Sequence record: NC_105587.1
Direction: 5' to 3' (one strand)
Origin: Escherichia phage EC100
DNA length: 64,000 nt
The notes under the pieces were generated by a model, which was given only the letters and a program-made list of their open reading frames with translations, did no database searches and was not told the origin of the DNA. The translations under genes were made by a program, and so were the position numbers. Shown one piece after another: positions 2,750-55,387 of this stretch (its first letter is position 1; every line of letters starts with the position of its first letter).

Positions 2750-3282
2750 TAATAAGTAACCAATTCCTGTACAAATCGCAGGCTGTTATCACTGTTTGCG
2801 CCAACTGCATAGACTAATCGGGTGGATTCATAATTATAATCCAGTATCATACTATCTAGGTGTATATCTGCCTCTAGCTTCTGTTCGCTAAAGATTGTAG
2901 ATACAAAAGCACTTTCTATATGCCCATGTTGGTACATTTCTAGAAGAAGATTAGCTCCGCCTAGAACTACTGTTTGCTGATCTTTTAGAAAAGTAGGTAA
3001 TGTATCACCTATCATTGATATGGGAGTGTAAATATCATGTGTAATATCGTCTGGCAGTGGACGATCAGCACGAATAAATAGGTCAGAAGCTCCAATCATA
3101 CGTTCCCTAACGGCGTATGGAAGAGCTAAATAAGTACCTGCCCCAATAATAATATTATCAGGATTTAGTACATCTAATTGTGAATAAAAAGCATCTAGTT
3201 CTTCTTTAAAAGAACCCCAGGGAAGCTTACCTCGGAGGCCGAACTCCCCATTCGGCCCAACTGCATATATTGCTGTAATCAT
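2749..3282 (-). CDS. frd: dihydrofolate reductase
   Basis: 177 aa; DHFR-like N-terminus (IYAV...GxxGxLPW); sits between thyA and nrdB. Confidence 0.75.
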   Translation of the reverse strand: MITAIYAVGPNGEFGLRGKLPWGSFKEELDAFYSQLDVLNPDNIIIGAGTYLALPYAVRERMIGASDLFIRADRPLPDDITHDIYTPISMIGDTLPTFLKDQQTVVLGGANLLLEMYQHGHIESAFVSTIFSEQKLEADIHLDSMILDYNYESTRLVYAVGANSDNSLRFVQELVTY

Positions 3283-4424
3283 AGGAAATCTCCAAATTCA
3301 TTGCCCAGATCTTTCAGAGTATCAGTAGAGGTCTCAGTTACCTGACCTACACGGTAAGCTGCACCAATCTGGATTTCTTGTGGAGCAGGCTGTAGAGAAG
3401 TAGTATCCAACCAGTTCATGATCCACGGAATAGGGTTTTTGGTGATTACTGGTAAGTGACTAGGCCATTCTACACCAATGTGCATAAATGCGTTACGTCC
3501 CACAAAGTACAAGTATTCTTCTAGAAGTTCTGCATTCAAACCAATCAGACTACGACCTTTGAAGATGAAATGACCCCATTCAATTTCAGTTTTCAGAGTT
3601 TTCAGGAGCTGTGCTGGTGCTTTAGCCACTGCTTCATCTACCAGATCTTTGTCAAACTGCTGGAACATAATCTGGATGATTGTTTTAGACATCTGAGTAT
3701 GTAGGGCTTCATCTTTAGCAATCAACTGCAGATTTTTAGCAATACCTTGCAGAATATCGTTCTCTGCTAACGCAAAGGTACATGCAAAGGATGCGTAGAA
3801 CTGCATTGCTTCTAGACCGTAGATTGCAAAATAAGCGTCTAATAACTTAGCCTGAGTTTCACGTTTAACTTCAGGAAACTCTGTTTCTGGGTAAGTATTA
3901 TCACCACGATGATCGCGTACTGCGATGAAATACTGACCTAACTGGTACAATTCATCGAACAGTTCAACAGAATCAGCGATACGTGCGAATGCTTCTTGGT
4001 TTTTAGTTACAGAATCAATAAATTCTGCCGGATCAGTCAGCACATTACGGATAATATTGCTATACGCACGACTATGCAGGTCTTCAAAATAGCTCCACTG
4101 CTTGAGCATACCTTCCAATTCTGGACGGCTTACAAGCGGCATAATAGCTGCTTCAGGAGCACGACTGATAAAGGAATCTGTTTGAGTCTGCCATGCTAAG
4201 TTCAGGAGTGTGATTTCCTGGATTTCACGTGGGAGATTGGGCCATTGTTTCTTATCTGCTTCCAGACTGATTTCAGTTTCAGTCCAAAATTGAGAGCGTT
4301 GCAGAAGTGCCAGACGTTCTAGTTCTGGATGTGCTACACGTACATAATCTGCGATACCTAGAGAATCGCCCAGGAAAAGATCAGCGTTAGTATGATCCCA
4401 ATTCAGGTTTAGTAAAGTAGTCAT
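3279..4424 (-). CDS. nrdB: ribonucleotide reductase class Ia beta subunit
   Basis: 381 aa; ferritin-like di-iron RNR small-subunit pattern; GAGGA SD. Confidence 0.9.
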   Translation of the reverse strand: MTTLLNLNWDHTNADLFLGDSLGIADYVRVAHPELERLALLQRSQFWTETEISLEADKKQWPNLPREIQEITLLNLAWQTQTDSFISRAPEAAIMPLVSRPELEGMLKQWSYFEDLHSRAYSNIIRNVLTDPAEFIDSVTKNQEAFARIADSVELFDELYQLGQYFIAVRDHRGDNTYPETEFPEVKRETQAKLLDAYFAIYGLEAMQFYASFACTFALAENDILQGIAKNLQLIAKDEALHTQMSKTIIQIMFQQFDKDLVDEAVAKAPAQLLKTLKTEIEWGHFIFKGRSLIGLNAELLEEYLYFVGRNAFMHIGVEWPSHLPVITKNPIPWIMNWLDTTSLQPAPQEIQIGAAYRVGQVTETSTDTLKDLGNEFGDFL

Positions 4425-13210: not shown

Positions 13211-13233
13211 TTTTTATTAGTTGACCTCTGATT

Positions 13234-13262
13234 ACCGAGTCATTTTGGCTCGGTTTTCTCTA
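13234..13262 (+). terminator. putative rho-independent terminator
   Basis: ACCGAG / CTCGGT stem followed by TTTCTC. Confidence 0.4.
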
Positions 13263-13301
13263 TGCTCAAAGACACTGATAGCACCATCCGGAAAATTTTA
13301 C

Positions 13302-13330
13302 TTGCAGGATGCCCAAAATCTTGATATAAT
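13302..13330 (+). promoter_or_regulatory. extended -10 promoter (TTGCAG-17-TATAAT with TGn) with no ORF behind it
   Basis: TGATATAAT extended -10 at 13322-13330; the next ORF starts about 500 nt downstream. Confidence 0.5.
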
Positions 13331-13827
13331 ATTTATATTGAATTGAGAGACATTAGTAAAAATTGATTTTGCTAATTTTTCTTGTTTACAATCCGCGATA
13401 CGGAACAGTTAGGCTGCCCCATTAAGGGTTGTTTTAACTATTACTAGTGTTTATATTGCATTAGTTAATCTTCAATTAAGTGATCTGTGTACCCTGAATT
13501 CGGAAAGGTAAATCCAAACCGTGCATATTTAGCTCGTTATATAGGCAGAGTTTTATATGGGGGTGCGAACGAAAAGAGCAGCGAATGGCGGCACGTACAG
13601 TAGTCACCTACCAATAGGATAGTGAGGACAAATAGAATCGGCTTAGCGGCCAATGACCTAGGTTCTATTCTGTATATGAGCGAAGAGAGCACAGCACTGA
13701 GATATGATAACTTATTCATATTGTTTGATGATAATTGATGTTTACGTAAATAGTAGTAATAGTTGTTCTATTCTTTCTGAATAGTCCTAAAGAAAAGATT
13801 TCGATTAACCAACACAGGAGTATTGTT

Positions 13828-15681: not shown

Positions 15682-16617
15682 GTGGATATTCGACGTATTC
15701 TGGATTACACAACTAATGAACTAATTGATCAACAAATTGATTGCTTATTATGTAGTCCATCCGTAACGAGTGGTGTTGACTTTAACTATTTTGATAACGT
15801 ATTTGTGATTACTAGAACTAGTAATCAAGCGCCAAACATGCGTTTCCAAGCAATCAGGCGCGACCGTGGTGCTCAGAATATCTATTATTTTATTGATAAA
15901 TCCACTAGTGGATTCTCCGCAGGTTCTGAACAATATAATATTGATGAGGGTTGGCTGGAGTTAGCACAGCAATTATATGCACGTCGCAGGGAGCTGGAAT
16001 CTAGGAACTATACTAGTACTTTACGTTATTACTTGCTTGATCAGGGTGCAACTATTGATATTTTCAGTGAAAGCTGGGGAACTATTGAAGGTGCTGGTAA
16101 AGAGTACACAGAAGAGCGAATCAAAGCTATTCTGCACTCAACTCCTGATTATTGTGCTCCACGTCATGCGGATGCGTATGAAGCTAAGCTACTTCTTGTT
16201 CGCTATTATCATCTCGAGTCTATTAAAGATGTAACAGTTGAGCATGTTGAACAATATATAAAAGATAAACCGAATGATCGAGCTGCATTCTTCCATAAGA
16301 TGCACGAGATGTTCTGGGAAGATATTAAGAAGTGTTCAAATGTGACCATTAAACCATTCATAGAGGCTCTGAAAGGTAAGAAGAAAGATTTCTTCCTTAA
16401 AACCGGTCAGAGTGCTAACCCAAAATATGCTAGAATGTATCTTGGCATGATGGGTATTGGTAAGGATATGAACACGGAGAATATCGTAGACTGGTACAGA
16501 ACCTACTGTAAAATCGAGTGTATGCCAATTCCTTATAAATTCATGACTGACGAGGAAAAACATATGCACGATGAAGCAATGTCAGAGCTAGGTGCTAGAA
16601 ATGACAGTGAAGAATAA
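15682..16617 (+). CDS. helicase-like protein, C-terminal portion (same frame as 13828-15666)
   Basis: 311 aa in the same reading frame 15 nt after the TGA; helicase-like SPSVTSGVDF motif; no SD in front of its GTG. Confidence 0.5.
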   Translation: MDIRRILDYTTNELIDQQIDCLLCSPSVTSGVDFNYFDNVFVITRTSNQAPNMRFQAIRRDRGAQNIYYFIDKSTSGFSAGSEQYNIDEGWLELAQQLYARRRELESRNYTSTLRYYLLDQGATIDIFSESWGTIEGAGKEYTEERIKAILHSTPDYCAPRHADAYEAKLLLVRYYHLESIKDVTVEHVEQYIKDKPNDRAAFFHKMHEMFWEDIKKCSNVTIKPFIEALKGKKKDFFLKTGQSANPKYARMYLGMMGIGKDMNTENIVDWYRTYCKIECMPIPYKFMTDEEKHMHDEAMSELGARNDSEE

Positions 16618-16834
16618 AAAATGGGAAACAAGGAAGTTTCCAGTAAAAGAACGTAAAGTTCCTGTTTATGATACTTCGGAAAAGCTATGTAGGGTGGTAC
16701 CACATAGATTAGCTGGTATCCCTAACATATCCGAGTGGTTACTTAAACAACGGAGGACTAACGTATCTCTTCGCATAGGGTTTGAGTTAGATAAAGTATA
16801 TGCTGAACTTTCTTCTTTGCTCAAGGAATCGTAA
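16592..16834 (+). CDS. hypothetical protein
   Basis: 80-aa ORF overlapping the helicase 3' end. Confidence 0.3.
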   Translation: MLEMTVKNKKWETRKFPVKERKVPVYDTSEKLCRVVPHRLAGIPNISEWLLKQRRTNVSLRIGFELDKVYAELSSLLKES

Positions 16835-17969: not shown

Positions 17970-18380
17970 ATGACTACTCCAACTCAGTGGACTGATGAAC
18001 TGTTTGAAAAAATGTCTTCCGAATATGTTGCTCGTATGGAGCAATTCCCAGAGGATGAACGTCCGGGCGTTAGCATGGAAATTGTTAGTGAAATTGCCCA
18101 GGAAAATGGTGTAACTCCGAACGGTTTTCGTATGAAGCTGACTAAAGCAGGTTTGTATATCAAGAAAGCTGCTGGTTCTACTTCTAAATCTAGCGCATCT
18201 ACTGGAGAAAAAGCTTCCGGTGGTTCTCGTACCTCCAAAGCTCAAGCCCATGCCGACCTTCGTTCAGCGTTCTCTGATGCTGGCTTAGCACCAGATTTTC
18301 TGGATGATGCAATTATCGACAAATTGACCGGTAAAGCGGCTGCTCATCTGGCAGAAGCAATCCGAGCTATCACTAAGTAA
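17970..18380 (+). CDS. hypothetical protein
   Basis: 136-aa ORF with AAGGAAA SD; codon usage like strongly expressed genes. Confidence 0.5.
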   Translation: MTTPTQWTDELFEKMSSEYVARMEQFPEDERPGVSMEIVSEIAQENGVTPNGFRMKLTKAGLYIKKAAGSTSKSSASTGEKASGGSRTSKAQAHADLRSAFSDAGLAPDFLDDAIIDKLTGKAAAHLAEAIRAITK

Positions 18381-20130: not shown

Positions 20131-20180
20131 TACATAACCCTTTGCTACCCATCTACCATATCGGAATTATAAAGTGGTTA

Positions 20181-20209
20181 TTGACATTTTCGCCGCTTAG
20201 GTATATACT
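20181..20209 (+). promoter_or_regulatory. sigma70 promoter, TTGACA-17-TATACT, inside the ligase spacer
   Basis: Consensus -35 with near-consensus -10. Confidence 0.5.
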
Positions 20210-20274
20210 ATTATCATTCAGTTGAGGGATAGAAAGTTATGGCGAGGGTAAGCAAAGTTAGTTAAAATTGTAGT

Positions 20275-20302
20275 TGCTAAATGCTTAAATACTTGCTATA
20301 AT
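20275..20302 (+). promoter_or_regulatory. cassette promoter, TTGCTA-17-TATAAT, for ligase subunit B
   Basis: -35 20275-20280, -10 20297-20302. Confidence 0.55.
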
Positions 20303-20332
20303 ATTTATATAAATTGATAAGGAAGAAATTTG

Positions 20333-21112
20333 ATGAAAATCGAAATTCCAACACAATGTCCCTCTTGTGGTTCTAAGCTAGATCTTGTCAACGGACAATT
20401 ATTCTGTCGTAATAAGTCCAACTGTCCAGCGCAATCAAGTAAGTTAATTGAGAACTTCTGTTCAAAAATGAAGTTAAAGGGCTTTGGCCCAAAAACTATT
20501 GAGAAGCTGGAGCTGACGAAGATTTCAGAACTATTTTACCTAACCGAAGAAGATTTGGTTAGAGCCGTGGGTAGCAAGGTTGCCGCTAAGTTAATTAGCG
20601 AATTAAATACTAAAGTTCGCGGAGACATTGACTTTGGTTCAGTTCTCGGTTCTTTAGGAATCCCTCTAATTGGAGAGGTTGCAGCAAAGAAATTGTCCCA
20701 AAATTGCACCAGTTTTCAAGATGTGAAGGCTGACGGCAAGGCTGGAGAAAACTATAAAGCCTGGCTAAATTCCCCACAAGGCAAGGATGTTATCGAATTA
20801 CCGTGGAAATTCACAACTGGTATTAAAGGTGCTAAAGCTGAGGTCATCATTACTGATGGTCTAGTAGCCCAGCCAAATGGAATCGCGGTGTGTATTACCG
20901 GGTCTTTGCAAGATTTTGCAAATCGAACGGATGCAACAAACTATTTAGAAGGTCTAGGATATACGGTTAAGAAATCCGTTACCAAAGACGTCAAATACCT
21001 AATCTGTGAGGATGAATCTAAGCGTTCTTCCTCATCTTATAAGAAAGCCGAAACGAATGGGATAGAAATCCTGTCGATTAAAGAACTATTGGAGAAAAAT
21101 AATAATGTCTAA
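20333..21112 (+). CDS. lig: NAD-dependent DNA ligase, subunit B (Zn finger, HhH, BRCT-like)
   Basis: C4 zinc finger CPSCGSKLD...CRNKSNCPAQ at the N-terminus, then HhH-like GFGPKT; ATG at 20333 (ORF track starts at TTG 20330). Confidence 0.75.
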   Translation: MKIEIPTQCPSCGSKLDLVNGQLFCRNKSNCPAQSSKLIENFCSKMKLKGFGPKTIEKLELTKISELFYLTEEDLVRAVGSKVAAKLISELNTKVRGDIDFGSVLGSLGIPLIGEVAAKKLSQNCTSFQDVKADGKAGENYKAWLNSPQGKDVIELPWKFTTGIKGAKAEVIITDGLVAQPNGIAVCITGSLQDFANRTDATNYLEGLGYTVKKSVTKDVKYLICEDESKRSSSSYKKAETNGIEILSIKELLEKNNNV

Positions 21113-21872
21113 ACTGAACTGGAACGTAGAAGGTGTAACCGAGTCTCTGAAAGCAAAAGCCACTGCTCTGGGTGTTGCTGTAATCTCTCAAGAACAAGTA
21201 GCGGCTATCGCTGCTGAACTGGCTGCTGAAACTGGCAAAGACGTTACCGCTCGCTCTGTTGGCTCTAAGCTGCGTAAAGAAGGTTTCGAAGTACAGAAAG
21301 CTAACGAAGTACAGAAATCCCCGTGGACTCCTGAGCAGGAAGCTGAACTGGTTGATTTCCTGAACGCTCATGCTGGTCAGTATACCTATGCTGAAATCGC
21401 TGCTGCTGTAGCTGGTGGTCAGTTCGGTGCTAAGCAGGTACAGGGTAAGATCCTGAGTCTGGAAATGACCGCTTCTGTTAAACCAACTGAAAAAGCTGCT
21501 GCTGTTCGTTCCTTCACTCCGGATGAAGAAACTGACTTTGTTAATCAGGTTGTTGCTGGAGCTACTATTGAAGCTATCGCTGCTCACTTCGGTCGTAATA
21601 TCAAACAGATCCGTGGTAAAGCTCTGAGTCTGCTTCGTGAAGGTCGTATCGCCGCTATGCCGGTACAGGAAACTTCAAGTGCTAAAACTCGTGAAGATCT
21701 GTTAGAAGGTCTGGATCTGGCTAACATGACCGTTGCTGAGATCGCTGAGAAAACTGGTAAGTCTGAGCGCGGTGTTAAATCTATGCTGTCTCGTCGTGGT
21801 CTGGTTGCTAAGGACTATGATGGTGCCGCTAAGCGTGCTAAACTGGATGCAAAAGCTGCGGCTGCTGAATAA
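21105..21872 (+). CDS. hypothetical protein with four HTH-like repeats
   Basis: 255 aa; four ~35-aa repeats of pattern xxE(I/V)AAxx...(K/R)x(V/I)xxKxLSL; Ala-rich; codon bias like highly expressed genes. Confidence 0.6.
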   Translation: MSKLNWNVEGVTESLKAKATALGVAVISQEQVAAIAAELAAETGKDVTARSVGSKLRKEGFEVQKANEVQKSPWTPEQEAELVDFLNAHAGQYTYAEIAAAVAGGQFGAKQVQGKILSLEMTASVKPTEKAAAVRSFTPDEETDFVNQVVAGATIEAIAAHFGRNIKQIRGKALSLLREGRIAAMPVQETSSAKTREDLLEGLDLANMTVAEIAEKTGKSERGVKSMLSRRGLVAKDYDGAAKRAKLDAKAAAAE

Positions 21873-21888
21873 TCTGGTAAATTAAACC

Positions 21889-21922
21889 TAAGGGGAGGGG
21901 GCTATGCTCCTTCCCCTTTTTG
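21889..21922 (+). terminator. rho-independent terminator
   Basis: AAGGGGAGGG / CCTTCCCCTT stem followed by TTTGCATTT. Confidence 0.55.
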
Positions 21923-21954
21923 CATTTAGAAGGCACGAAAGCGTGCAAAGGAGA

Positions 21955-23427
21955 ATGACCTTGTTTAACGTGCAAGCTGTAGTGTTGAAGATGCTTCTAG
22001 CTTCCGAACAGAAGCAAATAGCATTGGAAACATTCTCAAAACTGCATAAAGATCATTTTAATGACGCTTTCTCCTCAATTTACCAAGCCGTCCAGAATTA
22101 TTATAAAAAATATAACACAATGCCGTCCATTGACGCACTGATGCTTGAGTCTAATAGGAACGCCCGCCTTTCTCAAGCTCTAGTCGTCTTAGCTAACACT
22201 CAAATTCCAGAAGTGAGCATGGAACAGGCACTTGAAGTCCTAGAGGCCGAATATACACAGGATTTATTCCTGAAGCTTCTAGAAACAGACGTGCTTCAAG
22301 ATTTAACAATGCTGGATCAGGGAGAAATTCTCAACCGAGTTGCCTCCCTTCACTTAAAATTAGAAGAGAAAGTAACGAATACTGGAAAAGTATTCAACGC
22401 AGATAACATGCGTATTTTCCAGAGAGAAGAAGATACCAAACTGAACTTAATCGCTCTTGGTATTTGTAATGAGTTCGACGCTCAAATTGGTTTAGCTCGC
22501 ACAGAAACGTTACTGCTTGGTGGTTGGCGTGGTACTGGTAAATCCATTATCTGTTCAAACATACAGGTTCAGCAATATTTGAATGGAGATATTGCTCCAT
22601 ACTTCTCAATTGAGATGAAAGAACATGAAGTATTTAGACGTAATCTAGCCATGTTAGCTGGTGTATCAGCATTAGCAATGCGTAATAATACTCTAGAAGG
22701 TGCAGCTCTGTTGAGGTTGGCCAGAACTAGAGCTAGAATGTTTAATGGTGGTGAAGAGCTTTTTGATAACTTCGTTAAACAGTACACAATGGCTAAGATG
22801 AGTGATTTCTACGATATGGAGAGTAAGCTAATAGAGGGATATGAACTACATACTCCTATGATTATTGTTTATGATCCTGAGCTGTCCATTACAACAGTTG
22901 ACGTAGAATTAAATAAATTAGTTGCTAGATATGGTGATAAAGTTACAGTAGCTTTACTGGACTATATTAACCAAACCCGACTTCCAGACTCTAAAACCAT
23001 TGATATGTATGACTGGAAAGAACAGATGGTTGTTAGCTCGTCTTTCAAATCTATCTGCCAGAAACATAACGTGGCTGGAGTAGCTCCTTACCAGATCGAT
23101 CAAGATGGTAGAACACGTATGTCAAAGGGGATTCTTGATTCCGCAGACATGGCTGCTAATCTTAATGCTGCAAAAGCTGATAATGGTCAAGGTGCTATTA
23201 TGTTTGACTTCGTTAAGACTCGTTCTTCTGATAGCGTGAAGTTTATGCCTAAAATGAACTGGGAAACTCTGCGAATGGATAACACTACCAATCTAGCAAT
23301 GGAAGATATATCTCAAATGGAAGCTGAGTTCGTTATCCCTATTGAGAAGGATAAGTCGGCTCAACCTAAACGTGCTAAGAAAGACAAAGCTGAAAATTCA
23401 ACAGGTGAACAGGCCAGCGATATATGA
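21955..23427 (+). CDS. DnaB-like replicative helicase
   Basis: ATG 21955 with AAGGAG SD (ORF-track start 21904 lies inside the terminator); Walker A GGWRGTGKS; gene immediately precedes primase. Confidence 0.6.
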   Translation: MTLFNVQAVVLKMLLASEQKQIALETFSKLHKDHFNDAFSSIYQAVQNYYKKYNTMPSIDALMLESNRNARLSQALVVLANTQIPEVSMEQALEVLEAEYTQDLFLKLLETDVLQDLTMLDQGEILNRVASLHLKLEEKVTNTGKVFNADNMRIFQREEDTKLNLIALGICNEFDAQIGLARTETLLLGGWRGTGKSIICSNIQVQQYLNGDIAPYFSIEMKEHEVFRRNLAMLAGVSALAMRNNTLEGAALLRLARTRARMFNGGEELFDNFVKQYTMAKMSDFYDMESKLIEGYELHTPMIIVYDPELSITTVDVELNKLVARYGDKVTVALLDYINQTRLPDSKTIDMYDWKEQMVVSSSFKSICQKHNVAGVAPYQIDQDGRTRMSKGILDSADMAANLNAAKADNGQGAIMFDFVKTRSSDSVKFMPKMNWETLRMDNTTNLAMEDISQMEAEFVIPIEKDKSAQPKRAKKDKAENSTGEQASDI

Positions 23428-29003: not shown

Positions 29004-29288
29004 ATGCTTACAGAGCCTGATGCTCACCAATTATTGGTCGGTCCCTCATTCATTTTGAATGAATCAACTATTGTTGATAATCCAAATAAATTGTCTAATA
29101 GACAACTGGCAGAATATCTAGGAATTTTAAGTCTACGAAATTATGCCGAATACAAGTTTACAAACGATCCTAGTTTGGACATACAATATGTTCCAGTATG
29201 GATACCACGTTTAGTAATCGACACTAACCCACTAATCGCAATTAACAAATCGAAATTAATCTTTAAAGAGGAAATAAAATATGGCTAA
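29004..29288 (+). CDS. hypothetical protein
   Basis: 94-aa ORF with weak SD overlapping the next gene start. Confidence 0.3.
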   Translation: MLTEPDAHQLLVGPSFILNESTIVDNPNKLSNRQLAEYLGILSLRNYAEYKFTNDPSLDIQYVPVWIPRLVIDTNPLIAINKSKLIFKEEIKYG

Positions 29289-30054
29289 GTCTTGGGGCGA
29301 AACTACTGGCGGTTCTAACGATAAAATCGAATTCCTGAAGTTCAACAACGGTATCACTCGTGTTCGTATCGTTTCTGGTGTTCTTCCACGTTATGTCTAT
29401 TGGCTGACCAATAAAGAGGGTAACGTAGCTCCTTTCGAATGTCTCCGTTTTAACCGTGACAAAGAGAGCTTTGTTCGTGGTAAAGCTGATCCGGTTCATG
29501 AGATGGGCTTCTTCGAGAAAGAGCTGGATAAAGACGGTAATCGTGTTCCGCTGAAACCGAAGAAAAACTATATCGCTTTTGTTATCGACCGTTCTGATAA
29601 CAAACTGAAAGTAATGGAAGTCAAGGCTACTATTCTGAAAGGCATCCAGTCTATCATGAAGCAGCTGAGCCTGGCAACTCCGTTTGATATTGATATTTCT
29701 ATCGAGAAAAAAGGTAAAGGTTTCGATACTGAGTATGATGTACAGCAGATTGCTGCTATGCAGTTCCAGATTAAGCTGCAAGATCCTAACAGTGCAGAAT
29801 CTAAGCAATATGCTGCAGATGTAGATCTGATCGGTGAAGCTATGTGTGATGAAGATGGCGACATCATTAAGTTCGAAAAAGTTCCTTCTCTGGAACAAAC
29901 CTATCCGGTTCCTACCTATGAAGAGCAGAAAGAAGCAATTCAAGCCTTCATGGAGGGTCGTGAGAATAAAGATGATGATGCCAAATCTGGTAATAGCAAT
30001 GCAGGCTCCCAGAAAGGTATTGACACAGAAGCTGCAAGCGATCTGGATGACTAA
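29281..30054 (+). CDS. hypothetical early protein with acidic C-terminal tail, possibly ssDNA-binding
   Basis: 257 aa; strong SD AAGAGGAAA; codon bias like highly expressed genes; C-terminus DTEAASDLDD; located between helicase and SbcCD-like genes. Confidence 0.5.
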   Translation: MAKSWGETTGGSNDKIEFLKFNNGITRVRIVSGVLPRYVYWLTNKEGNVAPFECLRFNRDKESFVRGKADPVHEMGFFEKELDKDGNRVPLKPKKNYIAFVIDRSDNKLKVMEVKATILKGIQSIMKQLSLATPFDIDISIEKKGKGFDTEYDVQQIAAMQFQIKLQDPNSAESKQYAADVDLIGEAMCDEDGDIIKFEKVPSLEQTYPVPTYEEQKEAIQAFMEGRENKDDDAKSGNSNAGSQKGIDTEAASDLDD

Positions 30055-48998: not shown

Positions 48999-49490
48999 TT
49001 ACCGTGCTCGAGATTTGGCATGCGGCTTAACGTTAGGTATTCTACCGTTTTGCGGCTTATGCTTCTCAGCACGTTTACGTGCAGCGTCTACAGCTTTAGC
49101 ATCAAATATATTGATAATGTGTAGAACAAATTCTTTTTCTATAGGGTCGGTAATCCCATAAATATCAAATAAAACACCTAAAGCAGCCTTGTCTTTACCT
49201 ATAAAGATAGGGAAGTCACCAGGTATGAAACAGTCAACTAGACTATTATAAATATTCATACTAATAGCTACAATAGGTGGAAAGTCTTCAAGTTCAACAG
49301 GCATAGCCTTAGGATCAGGTTCTATACCCATTGACTCACAAAGTATTAAATATTGTTGTTTAGTCATTTTAGATGCTGAGCTTTTAATACACTTATCTGC
49401 AAAATCAGCAACAGCATCTAGTAGTTCTTTACGCTTTTGAGCTACGAAAAGTGTCGAGGTGGAACACTGTCTGGTTGATCCAAGAATCAA
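48999..49490 (-). CDS. tail assembly chaperone, downstream frame (possible frameshift extension)
   Basis: 163-aa ORF in the +1 frame relative to 49429-49848, overlapping it by 62 nt; the only start is a non-ATG codon. Confidence 0.35.
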   Translation of the reverse strand: MILGSTRQCSTSTLFVAQKRKELLDAVADFADKCIKSSASKMTKQQYLILCESMGIEPDPKAMPVELEDFPPIVAISMNIYNSLVDCFIPGDFPIFIGKDKAALGVLFDIYGITDPIEKEFVLHIINIFDAKAVDAARKRAEKHKPQNGRIPNVKPHAKSRAR

Positions 49491-49848
49491 ACGCAGCAGA
49501 GTTCTGCATAAGCATTACAGCATTATCACGACTAAATGGAACTTCAGTAGTAGGATCAGCATCTGTCTCAATCAGCATCAGCTTTTCAACGTCACCTACA
49601 GTCAAACCAGTCCAACCTTTAATTGCAGCATCAACGAAAGCTTCAATAAACTTATCGTCATCCTGTACTTGAATTAGAGTACCATTAACCCACTCATCGC
49701 GTTTGGCGGAAGAGATAACACGCTTAGAGGTAGCACGAGACATATAGTTAAGCTCTAGCTTAAAGTTTGGCATACCTGGGTATGAAAGAGTAATAGTACG
49801 GGTATCAAGGGTAATATCTTTTAAATTAATCATTTTTAATTTCTCCAA
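49429..49848 (-). CDS. tail assembly chaperone
   Basis: 139 aa immediately upstream of the tape measure gene. Confidence 0.5.
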   Translation of the reverse strand: MEKLKMINLKDITLDTRTITLSYPGMPNFKLELNYMSRATSKRVISSAKRDEWVNGTLIQVQDDDKFIEAFVDAAIKGWTGLTVGDVEKLMLIETDADPTTEVPFSRDNAVMLMQNSAAFDSWINQTVFHLDTFRSSKA

Positions 49849-50728
49849 AGAAATCTATTCTCACTGGGTCTGAAGAAGCAGTAGGTATAATATCCCACTC
49901 AACTTTATACACATCTGAGAAATCTAGGCGTTTTGTAATACGTGCTAAAGGAAAATCTATAGAAATACTATTATTTCTTATATTTAAAGGTACATCGGTC
50001 TCTGGTTCGATATTGTAAACCATATCTCCAGCAAAACGTTTTAAGTAATATAGAGAAATGGTTGCCGAAGCATTCATTTCATTTACATAGGCTCTTTTAT
50101 TATTATAGATTTTATTTATATCAAAAACACTCTTATCTTCTCTCCAAGAGCATTGCTGTTGAAAAGATAAAGAGGCGGAAATAAGGCCAGGTAAGATGCT
50201 ACCGTTAGTAGAAACTATTACCGGGCTATAAGACATTGCTTCACCCTGTATAATAGAAGCTGCTTCTCTATATGTAGATACTTCGGAGAATTTCCCTGAC
50301 TCAATACCAACGTTAAGAATTGGTATATTCTTATCTAAAGAAAAATCTACTGTAGATACATAACAGTTTTCAAAATATACACAGTTGTTATCTTTATTTA
50401 CTATATAGATATTAAACATAATAGGTTCAATATTGTTACTATATAGTGGTAGTAAGAAAGTATTACCTTTTCTGTCAAAACCTAGCCATTCAAAAAAGTT
50501 AGCTTCAGTAAGTGTATTACTAAAATTTATTGCTAGAGAGATAGAAGAAGGAGTTTGAGCATTTATAATAGAGTCTGCATAGTTAGTTCTACGATGAATA
50601 GTCCTACGAAGGGTCTTAAATTCTTCGTAGGATGTTTGTACATCATAGTTTGATAGGGCATCAAAATGAAATGCCCTACCATCATACTCAACTATAACTT
50701 TTGACTCTCGCATTAGAGAGTAGTACAT
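49826..50728 (-). CDS. tail structural protein (T5 p140-like)
   Basis: 300 aa between tube and chaperone genes; assignment by size and position. Confidence 0.4.
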   Translation of the reverse strand: MYYSLMRESKVIVEYDGRAFHFDALSNYDVQTSYEEFKTLRRTIHRRTNYADSIINAQTPSSISLAINFSNTLTEANFFEWLGFDRKGNTFLLPLYSNNIEPIMFNIYIVNKDNNCVYFENCYVSTVDFSLDKNIPILNVGIESGKFSEVSTYREAASIIQGEAMSYSPVIVSTNGSILPGLISASLSFQQQCSWREDKSVFDINKIYNNKRAYVNEMNASATISLYYLKRFAGDMVYNIEPETDVPLNIRNNSISIDFPLARITKRLDFSDVYKVEWDIIPTASSDPVRIDFFGEIKND

Positions 50729-50732
50729 TTAT

Positions 50733-52139
50733 TTAACCACCAGCACTAACTGTGATAGTTTTAGTACCTTCTACACCAGAACCGTCTTTAGCTACAGCCT
50801 TCACAATAACTGCACCAGTTTTAGAAGCGTCAGCTGTTAATAGCCCAGATTCTGCATCAATCGTAGCTGCGTTACCACTAGAAATAGACCAAGTTACAGC
50901 CTTATTAGTAGCTTCTGGAGGTGTTACCTCAACAGACATCTGTAAAGTATTACTATTTGTTACAGAAACAGCCTCACCTGCAGATTTAACTATAATGGAT
51001 TTAACGGGAACTGGAGGAGTTTTAGCACCATCTCCGGTAGCAATTAGATTCGCTATTGTAGTTTTGGTATACTTGTTAGAGAAGCCTAAGTATCCTTCGT
51101 CACCAGTATCCAAATCAGTAGGAATAGCTTTAAACTCTACTGAAGTACCAAGTACATCATCAGTCTCAATAGTAGGAATGTTAACGTGCGCCTGTTTAGC
51201 AACTAACACAGCTGCCGGACGTTCATCATCGTATTCACCACCCAAAATAAGTGCAATTTCAAAACGGTTAACTACCTTAAGGGTTTTGACAAGATCTTTG
51301 TACAGTTCCATAGAACCAAGAGACTTATCATTAAGGTATGCTGTCAAAGAACCCGTTAACTCAAACGCACCTGTAAATGAGCCGATTGGAATATTTACAC
51401 GGGACATAATATTCGGGGTTAGGTACGTGATGTTGTTATTAATGGTAAAAGTACCACCAGTAATAGGAATATCATATGCCTTATCAGAATCCATATCCTT
51501 AATTTTTAGGATAGTTAACTTGTTCTTAATGTAAGAACTCTGAATAGTCATATAGGTTTCATCATCAATACCTAGTGCATCTGGATCAAATGGTTGGCTA
51601 TCTAACGGGATGAGCTGATTACCATTACCAGACCAAGTTACACGACCAATATCCTCAATATCAACGTTAACTTCTGCCTGGTTGATCTGGCAAGAGTCAA
51701 TATAGCTCCATGCTTTGTCAGTAAGAATGTAGATGTGCAGCATAGCCAACTCATGATAAGAGTTATCTTTAAAGTTAACCATGAAGTTAGCTTCATTATT
51801 ATGCGCACCTGTGTCTCCCTCAAGGTTTAGTGCTTTACCACTAGAAAGAGCATGCCATAACATGTAGTCGGGAACAATCTGTTTATTAGAGGTTTTATCC
51901 TTGTATGGCAGGATATAAGTAGAAAAACTCCACTCAGCCGCATTTAAGGAATCGTTAAAACGTTTAGAACCACGAGTAGGCCGCGGACCAGCTTCGTTAA
52001 CAGTAATATCTGTTGAGTTACTGTCCTGACCCCAAGAAATATCATCCTGAACTAGAATCTCTTGCGTGTTGGTCTTATCGTGACCAGTCTTAACCGTAGA
52101 CACGAAGATTCGAGTATTACGTAATAGTTGTAAAGACAT
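50733..52139 (-). CDS. major tail tube protein with C-terminal Ig-like domain (T5 pb6-like)
   Basis: 468 aa; C-terminal ~90 aa with bacterial Ig-like (Big_2-type) pattern; AGGAG SD. Confidence 0.75.
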   Translation of the reverse strand: MSLQLLRNTRIFVSTVKTGHDKTNTQEILVQDDISWGQDSNSTDITVNEAGPRPTRGSKRFNDSLNAAEWSFSTYILPYKDKTSNKQIVPDYMLWHALSSGKALNLEGDTGAHNNEANFMVNFKDNSYHELAMLHIYILTDKAWSYIDSCQINQAEVNVDIEDIGRVTWSGNGNQLIPLDSQPFDPDALGIDDETYMTIQSSYIKNKLTILKIKDMDSDKAYDIPITGGTFTINNNITYLTPNIMSRVNIPIGSFTGAFELTGSLTAYLNDKSLGSMELYKDLVKTLKVVNRFEIALILGGEYDDERPAAVLVAKQAHVNIPTIETDDVLGTSVEFKAIPTDLDTGDEGYLGFSNKYTKTTIANLIATGDGAKTPPVPVKSIIVKSAGEAVSVTNSNTLQMSVEVTPPEATNKAVTWSISSGNAATIDAESGLLTADASKTGAVIVKAVAKDGSGVEGTKTITVSAGG

Positions 52140-52165
52140 TTAATTATTTTCTCCTAATCTGTAAC

Positions 52166-52651
52166 TTATCTGCGAAGTGACCTACGTGGAGGCTGATACC
52201 TCACTGTTACATTTATTTCTGCTAAACCATATGGGGCCAGTAGACCCTCATCTGTACTAACTGATGTAATGCTCATATCAGTCGCCTCACATGGGAAGGT
52301 CGATCCATTAGGTTTACTAACAGTATATTCTAAATTTCCACCTGTGTCAATAACGGTTTTTATATCCGCTACGAGTTTTTCAAGTTGCTCTTGAATGTCT
52401 GTTTTCTCTTTATCATACACCAGGATAGGAAGTTCTAAAAACATCCACTGTTGACCTGAGGGAAGATACTGCCCAGTTTCAGTTCCGATATGAACTGCAA
52501 CATAAGGAAACTCTCTTATCTCCTCAAACTTATAAGTTTGACGTGAGACGTTTCCATACAAGTTATTAAAATATTCATCTGGTTGGGAGCCATCCATTTG
52601 TTTGGCTATTCGATCAACCAGAGCTTGTGCTATACTTGTTCTGTGATCCAT
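52166..52651 (-). CDS. putative tail terminator / head-tail joining protein
   Basis: 161 aa directly upstream of the tube gene. Confidence 0.4.
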   Translation of the reverse strand: MDHRTSIAQALVDRIAKQMDGSQPDEYFNNLYGNVSRQTYKFEEIREFPYVAVHIGTETGQYLPSGQQWMFLELPILVYDKEKTDIQEQLEKLVADIKTVIDTGGNLEYTVSKPNGSTFPCEATDMSITSVSTDEGLLAPYGLAEINVTVRYQPPRRSLRR

Positions 52652-52654
52652 TTA

Positions 52655-53422
52655 TTAGGTTCCTTGATTAACCTTAATTTTGTATCTGGAGTGAATTAAG
52701 TCTCTTGCAGCTTTAGCTATCGCCTCTCCAATTAATCTTTGAGGGTTTCTAGCACCTGGGTAGGGTCGTAATGACAATCTTCGATATGTGGATACTGCAG
52801 GATTAAATACTGAATATGGACGTACCATATAATTATATGTAACATTTAATTCAGGAGCACCTTTGCTAGTTCCAACATCTCTAAGCATAACATCTTTAAC
52901 TTTTAGAGAATTTGCAAAACGACCTGTTCTAAATTTAAGTGGAGCTCCTGCTTTTTTCATATCCTTTATTAAGTATTCTTTAGCAACCAACTCCAGAATA
53001 ACCTTCATATTGCTATTAGATACAAAACGTCCTGAAGCACCTGTTACTGCACCTGAGTATCCATCCTCTACGTCTCTAGGATCCCCAAAGTTTACCTGTA
53101 CTCTGCCTGTAGAACGTTTTTTACCTACAGCGGATTTTTTGCCAGCGGTTGCTTGTATTAAACTCTCTAGAGCACCTAAATCTCCCGAAAGATCTAAACT
53201 AGAGGATACGGCTTTTAGTATAGAGGCTGTTCTAACATCAAGAAGATCTTGTGATACGGGTTTTGAAAATTTAAAAGATACTTGAGCAACAGTACCATCT
53301 CTGGTAGGATCTTTTAACCCTGTCTCAACAGAGTACACAACAGTATTCTTATTATTTTCAGATCGTCCTGCAGTATCTAGCTGCTCTTTAATAATTTGTT
53401 TAGCTAGATCGGAAAGAGACAT
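52655..53422 (-). CDS. hypothetical structural protein
   Basis: 255 aa in the head-tail connector block. Confidence 0.4.
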   Translation of the reverse strand: MSLSDLAKQIIKEQLDTAGRSENNKNTVVYSVETGLKDPTRDGTVAQVSFKFSKPVSQDLLDVRTASILKAVSSSLDLSGDLGALESLIQATAGKKSAVGKKRSTGRVQVNFGDPRDVEDGYSGAVTGASGRFVSNSNMKVILELVAKEYLIKDMKKAGAPLKFRTGRFANSLKVKDVMLRDVGTSKGAPELNVTYNYMVRPYSVFNPAVSTYRRLSLRPYPGARNPQRLIGEAIAKAARDLIHSRYKIKVNQGT

Positions 53423-53934
53423 TATACTCTCCTATATACTTCAATAATAGTACGAATATGCTCTGGGATACCAGACTTAGTGCTATTGAAGGTTACTGTT
53501 TCACCACCAATTGTTTTAGCTTGGCGATAATCTTGTTTATGCCAATGATCTACTAGCATACACGCTGCAAGTTTGAGATCTTCAGGCACTGGGTTAAATC
53601 CACCTTGTGTATATGCTACATCCATATAACCTTCTGGAGGATTAAATTTGAGAAGGATAATACCGTCAGAGTATAGCTTATACTGCTCTGGGTCAATCTC
53701 ATTATCGTTAATCGTCACTTTAGTTACGGAGGTAGCAGATGGTGAACTCAGAAAATATTTCCTACGTGTAGGTTTTGTATTGATTAACTGGTCTACCGCA
53801 TCAGCATCATCCATGCCTAGAAGGCTCGTAATCAGCGCATTGGCAGCAGTAATCATCATTTCTACACCAGATTCTAATTCAGGTCGTTTTAAGCTACCAT
53901 ATAATCTATAATCTTCGGCTGTGATGATTTGCAT
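53422..53934 (-). CDS. putative head-tail adaptor / head completion protein
   Basis: 170 aa; N-terminal MQIITAEDY...L pattern typical of head-tail connector proteins; first gene after the capsid terminator. Confidence 0.45.
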   Translation of the reverse strand: MQIITAEDYRLYGSLKRPELESGVEMMITAANALITSLLGMDDADAVDQLINTKPTRRKYFLSSPSATSVTKVTINDNEIDPEQYKLYSDGIILLKFNPPEGYMDVAYTQGGFNPVPEDLKLAACMLVDHWHKQDYRQAKTIGGETVTFNSTKSGIPEHIRTIIEVYRRV

Positions 53935-53939
53935 TTATT

Positions 53940-53974
53940 TTTCCCAATAAAAAAGGAGAGCCGAAGCTCTCCTT
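53940..53974 (-). terminator. rho-independent terminator after the major capsid gene
   Basis: AAGGAGAGC-cgaa-GCTCTCCTT hairpin followed by UUUUAUUGG on the minus strand. Confidence 0.65.
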
Positions 53975-53993
53975 ATCGGCTGAAAAGCCTGTA

Positions 53994-55370
53994 TTAAGAT
54001 GCAGCGTAAGCACCAGATACAACGCCGTTTTCGAAGTAACGTTGCAGGTTAACACGCTGAGTAACGTAGTACGCATCACGCTGTTTACCAGCTTGGCGCT
54101 CACGTTCAACAGTAACAGCACGCTGACGCGGCATTACGAAGTTATCTTTATAAACAATAACTGCGAACTCTGCAGAGTTAGCTTTAGCTGGGAAGTACTC
54201 AGAAACTACAACCGGCAGACCATAAATACGACCAACCTGACCCTGCAGTTTAACAGCATCATTACCAACCTGTGCAACATCCTGCCATTCTTCATCTTCC
54301 AGCAGATCGTAGTAAGCATCCATAGATACGATCAGTACCAGTTTGCTCAGTTTCAGACCATGACGGCCCAGTTTACGACGCAGTTTAGAGATAGTTTTAG
54401 CAGTTACCAGAACAGAACCATCAGCTTTAGCTTCAGTAATAACTTTAGCACTGTCGCCTTCAGCCAGTTTCAACAGACCTTTCGGCTTACCAGTACCATC
54501 ACCAGTCATAAACGCTTCTTCGATAGAAACAGCATGTGCTTCGATCAGGCGCTTACGCAGCAGCGGTAGCAAGGAGAAGATTGCATCTTCTTCAGTTTCA
54601 TCAGTAATGAATGACTTAGCAGCCAGTTTATAGGTTTTGAACTGAATTTCAGTCAGAGCACCTTTAACTTCGTTACCAGTAGTAGTGTCAGTACCGTATG
54701 TGTTAGCATCTACCCAAGTAGCTTTACCAGCATCTGGTTCAACCAGCATAGTAAGAATTTTGCTGGACATTGGCAGTTCTTCAAACAGAGCACCAACTAC
54801 CAGTTCTTTCTGCAGATCACGAATAATACGCTGAGAGAAAATAGTTTCATAGCTTTCACTAGAAACTTCTACTGAAGAGGACTGGTTTACAGTTTTCAGG
54901 TGTCTCTGGCCATGTTCGGTATCAAATACACCTTTTTCCATCACGTAAGACAGAAGAACCAGTTTTTCAACTTCATCTTCAAAGTTTTCCTGAGTACCGT
55001 ACAGTGCTTTAGCTACGCTATCACCAACGAAGGAACGTCCTTCACGAGCTGCCAGCAGAGATTTGATTTCGTCCTGAAGACCAACAATAGTTTCCTGTTG
55101 TTTTTCTACGGTCTGTGCGAACAGTTCATTACTCTTCTTAGATTTCTCATCCAGCGACTTAACCAGTTCCAGAGCCTCTTCCAGACGCTTACGGTCTTCG
55201 CCAACTGCTTTAGAAACCAGGTCATTCATACGAGCCAGTTCTTTTTCTTCCTGCTCTTTACGCATACGTTCAGCTTCCTGAGCTTTCTGAGCAGCGGTCA
55301 GACCTTCCAGAGATTTAGCCAGATCACCCAGACCAAGTTCTTCTTTCAGCTTATTAATATCAATAGTCAT
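53994..55370 (-). CDS. major capsid protein precursor (HK97 fold with N-terminal delta domain; T5 pb8-like)
   Basis: 458 aa; N-terminal ~150-aa coiled-coil scaffold-like domain, then capsid body; strong codon bias; terminator downstream. Confidence 0.85.
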   Translation of the reverse strand: MTIDINKLKEELGLGDLAKSLEGLTAAQKAQEAERMRKEQEEKELARMNDLVSKAVGEDRKRLEEALELVKSLDEKSKKSNELFAQTVEKQQETIVGLQDEIKSLLAAREGRSFVGDSVAKALYGTQENFEDEVEKLVLLSYVMEKGVFDTEHGQRHLKTVNQSSSVEVSSESYETIFSQRIIRDLQKELVVGALFEELPMSSKILTMLVEPDAGKATWVDANTYGTDTTTGNEVKGALTEIQFKTYKLAAKSFITDETEEDAIFSLLPLLRKRLIEAHAVSIEEAFMTGDGTGKPKGLLKLAEGDSAKVITEAKADGSVLVTAKTISKLRRKLGRHGLKLSKLVLIVSMDAYYDLLEDEEWQDVAQVGNDAVKLQGQVGRIYGLPVVVSEYFPAKANSAEFAVIVYKDNFVMPRQRAVTVERERQAGKQRDAYYVTQRVNLQRYFENGVVSGAYAAS

Positions 55371-55387
55371 TTTTAAATAATTCTCCG

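What the first reader, a model, noticed from the sequence alone, without database searches (positions are those of the whole stretch)
21105..21872. Early protein built from four HTH-like repeats with strong codon bias
The 255-aa product contains four ~35-aa internal repeats, each resembling a helix-turn-helix unit (T/S-x-x-E-[IV]-A-A ... K-x-[IV]-x-x-K-x-L-S). Its codon usage (GCT, CTG, CGT, GGT, GAA) departs from the neighbouring genes and resembles that of strongly translated genes. It is followed by a terminator. This could be an abundant DNA-binding or nucleoid-associated protein, for example a D5-like late-transcription factor.
Basis: seen in the sequence. Interest (0 to 1): 0.45.

Follow-up and report, generated by a model that had tools for sequence, protein, structure and literature searches.

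The report
Phage T5 D5 DNA-binding protein gene

Summary
The ORF at 21105-21872 (+) is the ortholog of bacteriophage T5 gene D5. It is 253/255 aa identical to T5.118, and the window is a Tequintavirus. All three observations hold.

1. Repeats: the protein consists of four three-helix HTH modules (aa 6-62, 74-122, 137-182, 193-236) plus a C-terminal helix. Profile-profile comparison (R2 vs R3, E=4.9e-9) and an AlphaFold model (pLDDT 91) support this. The real units are 45-57 aa, not about 35 aa.
2. Codon bias: it is the strongest of 64 ORFs in the window (Fop 0.83, Nc 30.8). That equals the major head protein and is far above ligB (Fop 0.42), the overlapping and probably co-transcribed gene.
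3. Terminator: a 13-bp hairpin with a T-run follows the gene. Relatives carry different hairpins at the same place.

Most likely D5 coats phage dsDNA stoichiometrically as an architectural protein. That would permit replication, switch off early transcription and enable late transcription. The gene and its phenotype are already known; only the four-module description adds detail.

The parts
20181..20209 (+). Sigma-70-type promoter-like site (TTGACA-17-TATACT) in the ligA-ligB spacer. It lies where T5 annotates early promoter P-K28b.
   Evidence: 11 of 12 matches; T5 annotation. Promoter activity was not tested here.
20274..20302 (+). Second promoter-like site (TTGCTA-17-TATAAT with an extended -10 TG). 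It lies where T5 annotates early promoter P-K28a. It is the likely start of the ligB-D5 transcript.
   Evidence: T5 annotation.
20333..21112 (+). ligB (second half of the split NAD-dependent DNA ligase). It lies upstream of D5, is probably co-transcribed with it, and its stop codon overlaps the D5 start by 8 nt.
   Evidence: Fop 0.42 and Nc 56.4. The same ligB-D5 overlap occurs in a marine relative.
21092..21095 (+). Shine-Dalgarno GGAG, 9 nt upstream of the D5 ATG.
   Evidence: Read directly from the sequence.
21105..21872 (+). D5 coding sequence: 255 aa, 27.0 kDa, pI 6.8, 18% Ala, no Cys.
21120..21290 (+). HTH module R1 (aa 6-62), helices 11-22, 29-43 and 49-58. Recognition helix ARSVGSKLRK (charge +4, mean conservation 0.90).
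21324..21470 (+). HTH module R2 (aa 74-122), helices 76-88, 95-101 and 109-118. Recognition helix AKQVQGKILS. Q113, G114, K115 and L117 are invariant.
21513..21650 (+). HTH module R3 (aa 137-182), helices 139-150, 155-162 and 166-178. Recognition helix IKQIRGKALSLLR. It is a clear duplicate of R2.
   Evidence: (E=4.9e-9).
21681..21812 (+). HTH module R4 (aa 193-236), helices 210-217 and 221-231, with a short or irregular first helix. This is the only stretch that passes a Pfam threshold (Sigma70_r4_2, aa 204-230).
21822..21866 (+). Conserved basic C-terminal helix (aa 240-254, GAAKRAKLDAKAAAA), preceded by invariant D237 and G240. Its role is unknown; it may be a protein-protein or cooperativity element.
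21890..21923 (+). Intrinsic terminator: 13-bp GC-rich hairpin followed by a T-run, ending the ligB-D5 unit.
   Evidence: It is identical in T5. Different hairpin-plus-T-run sequences sit at the same place in Salmonella phage R2 and in a marine relative.

Best explanation
This is gene D5 of a T5-like phage (Tequintavirus). It lies in the early replication gene block and appears to be transcribed with ligB from the P-K28-type early promoters, ending at its own terminator. Its codon usage points to very efficient translation.

The product is a string of four small three-helix HTH DNA-binding modules, each with acidic helices 1 and 2 and a basic, highly conserved recognition helix. Short linkers with conserved residues join them, and a basic C-terminal helix follows.

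I infer that one D5 monomer places its four recognition helices in successive major grooves (a footprint of roughly 40 bp is a rough guess). I also infer that many monomers coat phage duplex DNA in stoichiometric amounts, like a phage-encoded nucleoid-associated protein. Coating would remodel the template so that replication can proceed, early promoters are shut off and late promoters become usable by the host sigma-70 RNA polymerase.

Shown here: identity with D5, the four-module architecture, the codon bias, the terminator and the conserved synteny. Taken from the T5 record and literature: DNA binding and the replication and late-transcription phenotype. Inferred: coating stoichiometry, groove-by-groove binding and the template-remodelling mechanism.
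For: - Identity: 253/255 aa identical to T5 D5; PHROG 323 at E=1.9e-71; source names.
- Function in T5: the record note reads 'DNA-binding protein; required for DNA replication and late transcription; also involved in shutoff of expression...'. The title of McCorquodale 1979 J Virol 29:322 is seen.
- Architecture: four tri-helical modules at pLDDT 91, with pTM of only 0.45, which suggests independently placed domains.
- Recognition helices: more conserved than the rest (0.81 vs 0.60, p=3.7e-8) and charged +2 to +4, while helices 1 and 2 are acidic.
- Linkers: they carry invariant or near-invariant residues (V125, K126, R135, P186, Q188).
- Abundance: Fop 0.83 and Nc 30.8 equal the major head protein. 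The phage SSB (D11) and D3 DNA-binding protein come next, whereas the overlapping ligB has Fop 0.42. This is the pattern of stoichiometric DNA-coating proteins, not of low-copy regulators.
- Synteny: the order PC4-like, ligA, ligB, D5, DnaB, primase, PolA is kept in a marine relative (53% identical over the aligned 87% of D5).
- Nucleic-acid binding: purified T5 D5 remodels a retron-msdDNA complex in vitro, is predicted (AlphaFold3) to bind the msdDNA through an HTH, and is mildly toxic when expressed alone.
Against: - No binding, stoichiometry or footprint data were generated here.
- The classical biochemistry (cooperative dsDNA binding, about 29 kDa, abundant early protein) is recalled from memory. 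The papers could not be opened.
- Each module's recognition helix is distinct and individually conserved. That could equally indicate sequence-specific reading of a composite site.
- The marine homolog does not show a stronger codon bias than its neighbours (Nc 41.5).
- A retron escape phage is reported to carry W74* in D5. This is hard to reconcile with an indispensable coating protein.
Confidence: 0.6

Rival explanations
1. D5 is an RNA-polymerase-directed cofactor. It would act like GcrA (a sigma-70 cofactor with a DNA-binding HTH) or as a mimic of sigma region 4. It would contact the sigma-70 holoenzyme, perhaps through the C-terminal helix or module R4, and redirect it from early to late T5 promoters.
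For: - The R2+R3 module profile aligns end to end with GcrA aa 3-48 (hhalign P 94%, E=1.6e-7). In a second run GcrA (5.8e-6) beat eight other HTH controls.
- R4 passes the Pfam Sigma70_r4_2 threshold (29.1 vs 25.7).
- Marine phage-like contigs encode proteins with a sigma/LuxR-like N-terminus fused to 4-5 D5-like modules.
- How T5 switches from early to late transcription by the host sigma-70 RNA polymerase is still unknown (PMC7472727).
Against: - D5 has no cysteine, so it lacks GcrA's CCCH zinc-finger sigma-interaction domain, which is essential for sigma binding.
- Pfam GcrA is not matched.
- There is no sigma region 2, and the Sigma70_r4_2 match covers only the 27-aa HTH.
- Codon adaptation at major-head-protein level is far more than a 1:1 polymerase cofactor would need.
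Confidence: 0.2
2. D5 is a sequence-specific activator or repressor. Its four different recognition helices would read a long composite operator present at late and/or early T5 promoters.
For: Each module has its own nearly invariant recognition helix across homologs down to about 50% identity: RSVGSKLRK, KQVQGKxLS, xRGKxLSL and RGxKxxLxRRG. The linkers have fixed lengths and conserved residues. Tandem HTH proteins such as Myb R2R3, Tc3 and Cbp1 are sequence-specific, and all appear among the fold matches.
Against: Abundance-level codon bias. Of the residues that contact bases in GcrA, only G38 is kept (as G114/G171); R33, N34, I37, H41 and R42 are not, while the backbone-contacting K39 (K115/K172) is also kept. 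Non-specific cooperative dsDNA binding is what I recall from the classical literature (unverified here). No candidate operator was searched for.
Confidence: 0.12
3. D5 is primarily a replication protein, such as a replisome or template accessory factor. The late-transcription defect of mutants would then be a secondary consequence of failed replication or template processing.
For: The gene sits inside the replication block between ligase and the DnaB-like helicase, primase and polymerase. That order is conserved in distant relatives. The T5 record lists a replication requirement first.
Against: The T5 record separately lists late transcription and shut-off of early expression. Nothing in the sequence points to an enzymatic or clamp-like replication role. 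This rival overlaps with the main explanation rather than excluding it.
Confidence: 0.2
4. The repeats and the codon bias are artefacts. The repeats would reflect Ala-rich low complexity, and the codon usage would reflect recent acquisition of a host gene.
For: The protein is 18% alanine. The gene's GC content is 48%, against about 40% for its neighbours.
Against: - The R2-R3 profile match at E=4.9e-9 covers 41 columns that include non-Ala invariant residues.
- The structure model gives four matching modules.
- Natural variants with five modules exist (P0121, P0181).
- GC3 is only 0.32, like the rest of the phage. The preferred codons (GCT, CGT, GGT, ACT, CTG, ATC, CAG, CCG) are those of highly expressed E. 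coli genes, not of average host genes (the optimal-codon set is established knowledge from Ikemura and from Sharp & Li).
- The family shows conserved synteny and occurs on T5-like phage genomes and metagenome contigs, with no bacterial source gene apparent among the best matches.
Confidence: 0.02

Closest known systems
Bacteriophage T5 D5 protein (T5.118, YP_006946.1; UniProt D5_BPT5 'Putative transcription factor D5'; PHROG 323)
   Same: 253/255 residues identical, with the same length. It has the same position between ligB and the DnaB-like helicase D6 and the same terminator sequence.
   Different: Two substitutions only (D25A and V206A relative to T5). Unlike T5, the window lacks the HNH endonuclease genes hegI and hegJ nearby.
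Caulobacter crescentus GcrA DNA-binding domain (PDB 5YIU/5YIV; Pfam PF07750)
   Different: GcrA has one DBD plus a CCCH zinc-finger sigma-interaction domain and acts as a 1:1 monomeric cofactor. D5 has four DBD-like modules, no Cys and no SID. It does not match Pfam GcrA. Most of GcrA's base-contacting residues (R33, N34, I37, H41, R42) are not kept.
Tandem tri-helical HTH arrays: Myb R1R2R3 / SANT repeats, Tc3 and paired bipartite domains, Sulfolobus Cbp1 (2LVS)
   Different: The Myb Pfam score is below threshold (17.6 vs 24.4). The three regularly spaced Trp residues of Myb repeats are absent. There are four modules rather than two or three.
Sigma-70 region 4 / LuxR-GerE HTH
   Same: R4 (aa 204-230) passes the Sigma70_r4_2 gathering score. 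Some phage records therefore name the protein 'RNA polymerase sigma factor' (Shivani).
   Different: Only the 27-aa HTH core matches. There is no region 2 or 3 and no core-binding determinants, so it is not a sigma factor.
Abundant phage-encoded duplex-DNA-binding proteins that modulate transcription, e.g. Bacillus phage SPO1 TF1 (recalled from memory, not tested)
   Same: The proposed way of working: a highly expressed phage protein that coats or bends phage DNA and changes promoter use.
   Different: TF1 is an HU-type dimer, an unrelated fold. No sequence or structural relation exists.

Membership tests
T5 D5 family (PHROG 323, 'transcriptional regulator, D5-like') | Full-length sequence homology to T5 D5 | tested here: met
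   99% identity over 255 aa. PHROG 323 at E=1.9e-71 covering aa 1-253. Same 90% cluster as D5_BPT5.
T5 D5 family (PHROG 323, 'transcriptional regulator, D5-like') | Position in the early replication block, directly after ligB and before the DnaB-like helicase | tested here: met
T5 D5 family (PHROG 323, 'transcriptional regulator, D5-like') | Binds double-stranded DNA; required for replication, late transcription and early shut-off | not testable with these tools
   Taken from the T5 record note and the title of McCorquodale 1979.
GcrA family (Pfam PF07750) | N-terminal three-helix DNA-binding domain of GcrA type | tested here: met
GcrA family (Pfam PF07750) | C-terminal CCCH zinc-finger sigma-70 interaction domain | tested here: not met
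   D5 contains no cysteine. The SID requires C118, C133, C143 and H146 (PMC5887438).
GcrA family (Pfam PF07750) | Match to the Pfam model at its gathering score | tested here: not met
   PF07750 is absent from the Pfam results for D5 and for each module even at E<=10. The GcrA DBD itself scores 93.3 bits.
Sigma-70 family sigma factors | Region 4 HTH (-35 recognition) | tested here: inconclusive
   Sigma70_r4_2 scores 29.1 bits against a cut-off of 25.7, but only profile positions 23-49 of 54 are matched (aa 204-230).
Sigma-70 family sigma factors | Region 2 (core binding, -10 recognition) | tested here: not met
   No Sigma70_r2 hit at E<=10. The whole chain is accounted for by four HTH modules.
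Myb/SANT repeat proteins | Pfam Myb_DNA-binding at gathering score; three conserved, regularly spaced aromatic residues per repeat | tested here: not met
   17.6 bits against a cut-off of 24.4. Only the first aromatic residue (W6, W74, F137) is conserved.
Intrinsic (rho-independent) terminators | GC-rich hairpin immediately followed by a U-run, downstream of a stop codon | tested here: met
   13-bp stem with 8 GC pairs, followed by TTTTT, -25.5 kcal/mol. Non-homologous equivalents occur in relatives. Termination itself was not assayed.

The most novel reading that the evidence does not exclude
D5 may be the missing switch of T5 transcription. On this reading, its array of four GcrA-DBD-like modules occupies promoter-proximal DNA while its conserved C-terminal helix touches the sigma-70 holoenzyme. 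It would then work as a multivalent, GcrA-like sigma-70 cofactor that silences early promoters and activates late ones. The marine phage proteins that fuse a sigma/LuxR-like domain to 4-5 such modules would be covalent versions of the same device.
Probability: 0.15. Interest if true: 0.6.

Novelty: already known. Interest (0 to 1): 0.22.

Why it matters
The gene and its phenotype have been known since the 1970s, so the finding itself adds no new element.

What the analysis adds is a concrete architecture. D5 consists of four conserved, non-identical HTH modules with basic recognition helices. The nearest solved structure to a module is the GcrA DNA-binding domain. The analysis also adds a quantitative argument (codon adaptation equal to the major head protein) that D5 acts in stoichiometric amounts.

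The mechanism of the early-to-late transcription switch in T5 is still described as unknown (PMC7472727). D5 was also recently reported as the trigger of a type IX retron. A module-level map therefore gives clear targets for mutagenesis and DNA-binding experiments. It also corrects the annotations found in phage records, which range from 'sigma factor' and 'single stranded DNA-binding protein' to 'hypothetical protein'.

Tried and rejected
- Foldseek of the whole model against the PDB gave nothing below E=0.018, only generic multi-HTH proteins.
- HMMER profile searches of the whole family and of the R2+R3 module against PDB sequences found no true relative. The best hits were designed helical or 'CAP repeat' proteins and an engrailed variant.
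- Pfam does not recognise GcrA in D5 or in any module.
- The classical T5 papers (PMC353123, PMC355262, PMC4743489) are not held. Full-text searches for D5 returned essentially only the retron preprint.
- The DRT4 trigger 'ORF55', a T5 DNA-binding protein, turned out to be a different, ssDNA-binding protein and is not D5.
- The 169-aa antisense ORF 21078-21587 was considered and rejected as a by-product of the GCT/CTG-rich sense frame.
- Horizontal transfer from the host as the cause of the codon bias was rejected. GC3 is 0.32, the family is phage-associated and synteny is conserved.
- The codon-bias test in a marine homolog was uninformative (Nc 41.5, no host reference).

Full report
**What is at the coordinates**

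Positions 21105-21872 (+) hold an ATG-to-TAA ORF of 255 aa. The DNA is 100% identical to Escherichia phages EC104, EC105, EC122 and EC142, and 95-99% identical to more than 400 T5-like phage records. The protein is 253/255 identical to bacteriophage T5 gene D5 (T5.118, YP_006946.1). It matches PHROG 323 'transcriptional regulator, D5-like' over its whole length (E=1.9e-71). Its exact sequence is filed as 'D5 protein' in UniProt, and the T5 copy is Swiss-Prot D5_BPT5 'Putative transcription factor D5'.

The window is therefore the early-replication and late-structural part of a Tequintavirus (Demerecviridae) genome. The T5 record describes D5 as a 'DNA-binding protein; required for DNA replication and late transcription; also involved in shutoff of expression of ...'.

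**Observation 1: internal repeats**

The best off-diagonal self-alignment scores 75, against 38.9 +/- 6.9 in 200 shuffles (z 5.2; one shuffle reaches it).

I aligned 28 homologs that go down to about 50% identity, cut the alignment into four segments and compared them as profiles. The E-values, each for a single comparison, are:
- R2 vs R3: 4.9e-9 (probability 96%, 41 columns)
- R3 vs R4: 9.3e-5
- R1 vs R4: 5.6e-4
- R1 vs R3: 0.008
- R2 vs R4: 0.01
- R1 vs R2: 0.16

An AlphaFold2 model built on that alignment has mean pLDDT 91 and pTM 0.45. It shows four helix-helix-helix modules: helices 11-22/29-43/49-58, 76-88/95-101/109-118, 139-150/155-162/166-178, and 210-217/221-231 with a short first helix. 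A C-terminal helix at 240-254 follows.

The four modules align to one pattern. It starts with an aromatic residue and Thr/Ser and an acidic helix 1. Then comes 'T-x-x-E-I-A' in helix 2. A basic helix 3 has 'V/I-x-G/S-K-x-L-S/R'.

So the repeats are real. The true unit is a 45-57 aa module recurring every 58-68 aa, not about 35 aa. Natural relatives with five modules exist (P0121 with a second R2 copy, and P0181), which shows evolution by tandem duplication.

**Observation 2: codon bias**

I scored each ORF by the fraction of codons that are optimal in highly expressed E. coli genes. The codon set is established knowledge (Ikemura; Sharp & Li).
- D5 scores 0.83, against a mean of 0.47 (sd 0.10) for 64 ORFs. 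This is the highest in the window.
- The major head protein (53994-55370, -) is second at 0.80.
- The host-independent effective number of codons is 30.8, the lowest of 23 genes. The head protein has 32.1, SSB D11 34.1 and D3 36.4.
- ligB overlaps the D5 start and is presumably on the same transcript, yet it has Fop 0.42 and Nc 56.4.

D5 uses GCT for 85% of Ala, CTG for 89% of Leu, CGT for 83% of Arg, GGT for 84% of Gly, ATC for 90% of Ile and CAG for 83% of Gln. GC3 is 0.32, like the rest of the phage. The signal therefore points to translational selection, not to a host-derived gene.

**Observation 3: terminator**

A 13-bp hairpin with 8 GC pairs at 21890-21918 is followed by TTTTT. Its predicted energy is -25.5 kcal/mol (z -2.9 against shuffles). 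It is identical in T5. In Salmonella phage vB_Sen_SG_WM_RUS_R2 and in a marine relative, different hairpin-plus-T-run sequences occupy the same position. This argues for a conserved function.

Upstream, two strong promoter-like sites in the ligA-ligB spacer (20181-20209 and 20274-20302) coincide with T5's annotated early promoters P-K28b and P-K28a. The likely unit is therefore promoter, ligB, D5, terminator.

**What the modules resemble**

Only one Pfam model passes its threshold: Sigma70_r4_2, 29.1 vs 25.7 bits, covering just the HTH of R4 (aa 204-230). Myb, homeodomain-like and other HTH models score below threshold. No relative has a solved structure by sequence, and whole-chain Foldseek against the PDB finds nothing significant.

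The R2+R3 module profile aligns end to end with GcrA residues 3-48 (hhalign probability 94%, E=1.6e-7). In a control run GcrA scored 5.8e-6, against 7e-4 for c-Myb R2, 1e-3 for sigma-70 region 4 and 3.6e-3 for GerE. GcrA is therefore the closest, but by a modest margin.

GcrA's G38-K39 (base contact and phosphate contact; PMC5887438) corresponds to the invariant G114-K115 and G171-K172 of D5. GcrA's other base-contacting residues are not kept. D5 has no cysteine, so it cannot have GcrA's CCCH zinc-finger sigma-interaction domain. It also has no sigma region 2. It is therefore neither a GcrA-family member nor a sigma factor, despite some database names.

**Conservation and distribution**

The recognition helices are the most conserved parts (mean column identity 0.81 vs 0.60 elsewhere, p=3.7e-8). 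They carry charges of +2 to +4, while helices 1 and 2 are acidic. The linkers contain invariant or near-invariant residues (K126, R135, P186, Q188).

A profile search of 1.84 billion representative proteins finds 510 clusters at E<=0.001. Of these, 75 are at E<=1e-30, and nearly all of those that are full length are 233-262 aa. In a marine relative (53% identical over the aligned 87% of D5) the gene order is PC4-like, ligA, ligB, D5, DnaB, primase, PolA, and the ligB-D5 overlap is conserved. BFVD finds the Vibrio phage D5 model (E=6e-27), and beyond it only loosely similar multi-HTH viral proteins.

**Mechanism**

The identity with D5 is certain. For the way it works, I favour (confidence about 0.6) an architectural, stoichiometric duplex-DNA-coating protein:
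- There are four independently folded HTH modules (low pTM).
- The recognition helices are basic and conserved, and the linkers are conserved.
- Codon adaptation is on a par with the major head protein and above the phage SSB.
- The gene has a fixed place in the replication block.

From memory, and unverified here, classical work reported cooperative dsDNA binding by an abundant early protein of about 29 kDa.

A recent preprint shows that purified D5 is monomeric (26 kDa) and remodels a retron-msdDNA complex. An AlphaFold3 model in it predicts that D5 binds the msdDNA through an HTH. D5 is mildly toxic when expressed alone.

The main rival is a GcrA-like sigma-70 cofactor or sigma-region-4 mimic (about 0.2). 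The GcrA resemblance supports it, as do marine phage proteins that fuse a sigma/LuxR-like domain to D5-like modules. The missing sigma-interaction domain and the implied abundance weaken it. A sequence-specific composite-site regulator (about 0.12) and a primarily replicative role (about 0.2, not exclusive) remain possible.

**Novelty**

What is added here is descriptive:
- an explicit four-module map;
- the nearest solved fold;
- the quantitative codon-bias ranking;
- the functionally conserved terminator;
- a probable mis-annotated start of the neighbouring helicase gene.

How T5 switches from early to late transcription is still described as unknown (PMC7472727). The module map is therefore useful for experiments, but it is not a discovery.

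Noticed in passing
window 21904-21957: The annotated start of the DnaB-like helicase D6 (ATG 21904, as in T5 and EC122) lies in the loop of the D5 terminator hairpin. An in-frame ATG at 21955 has AAAGGAG 5 nt upstream. The ortholog in Salmonella phage R2 starts at the residue equivalent to window residue 20, and the first 19 residues have no counterpart. The true start is probably 21955 (or the TTG at 21961).
   Followed up: yes
window 16617-16834 and 23424-23427; L001 4319-4837 and 11615-12148; L002 4828-5409: The window lacks the HNH homing-endonuclease genes hegI and hegJ that T5 carries after T5.108 and between D6 and primase. Here the D6 stop overlaps the primase start. Salmonella phage R2 has an additional HNH gene inserted between D5 and the helicase. 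The flanks of D5 and D6 are hot spots for homing-endonuclease gain and loss.
   Followed up: partly
window 21078-21587 (-): A 169-aa Ser-rich antisense ORF lies entirely inside D5. It is best explained as a stop-free by-product of the GCT/CTG/GGT-rich sense frame and is not a gene.
   Followed up: partly
window 53994-55370 (-), 29281-30054 (+), 17970-18380 (+), 3279-4424 (-): The other genes with strong E. coli-type codon adaptation are the major head protein (Fop 0.80, Nc 32.1), SSB D11 (0.66, 34.1), D3 DNA-binding protein (0.68, 36.4) and the small subunit of ribonucleotide reductase (0.62, 37.3). The bias tracks proteins expected in stoichiometric amounts.
   Followed up: partly
L007 2579-4099, L008 3396-4916, L009 1197-2717 (proteins P0250, P0240, P0256): Marine phage-like contigs encode 447-569 aa proteins with a sigma/LuxR-type N-terminal part (Pfam hits to GerE and Sigma70_r4) followed by 4-5 D5-like HTH modules. 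This may be a covalent link between a sigma-like domain and a D5-type array.
   Followed up: partly
D5 residues G53, W74, V149, G232 (window 21261-21263, 21324-21326, 21549-21551, 21798-21800): A 2026 preprint reports a T5 retron-Kva2 escape phage carrying G53D, W74*, V149I and G232D in D5. A premature stop at W74, at the start of module R2, is unexpected for a gene that the T5 record calls required for replication and late transcription. This is unexplained; it could reflect a mixed population, a suppressor, or dispensability in that host.
   Followed up: no
window 20131-20332: The NAD-dependent ligase is split into ligA and ligB by a 200-nt spacer that carries two strong promoter-like sites (equivalents of P-K28b and P-K28a). 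In Salmonella phage R2 the same gap holds two extra small ORFs.
   Followed up: partly
window 13211-13827: A stretch of about 600 nt without an annotated gene lies upstream of the 930-aa T5.108-like protein ('replication origin binding', SANT/Myb plus helicase domains in the T5 annotation). T5 annotates a terminator and a promoter there. I did not examine it for origin-like repeats.
   Followed up: no
window about 49000-55400 vs ON185583.1: The window is 100% identical to phage EC122 across D5, but gene coordinates drift by 2-13 nt in the late region. The source is therefore a very close relative (perhaps EC104, EC105 or EC142) and not necessarily EC122 itself.
   Followed up: no
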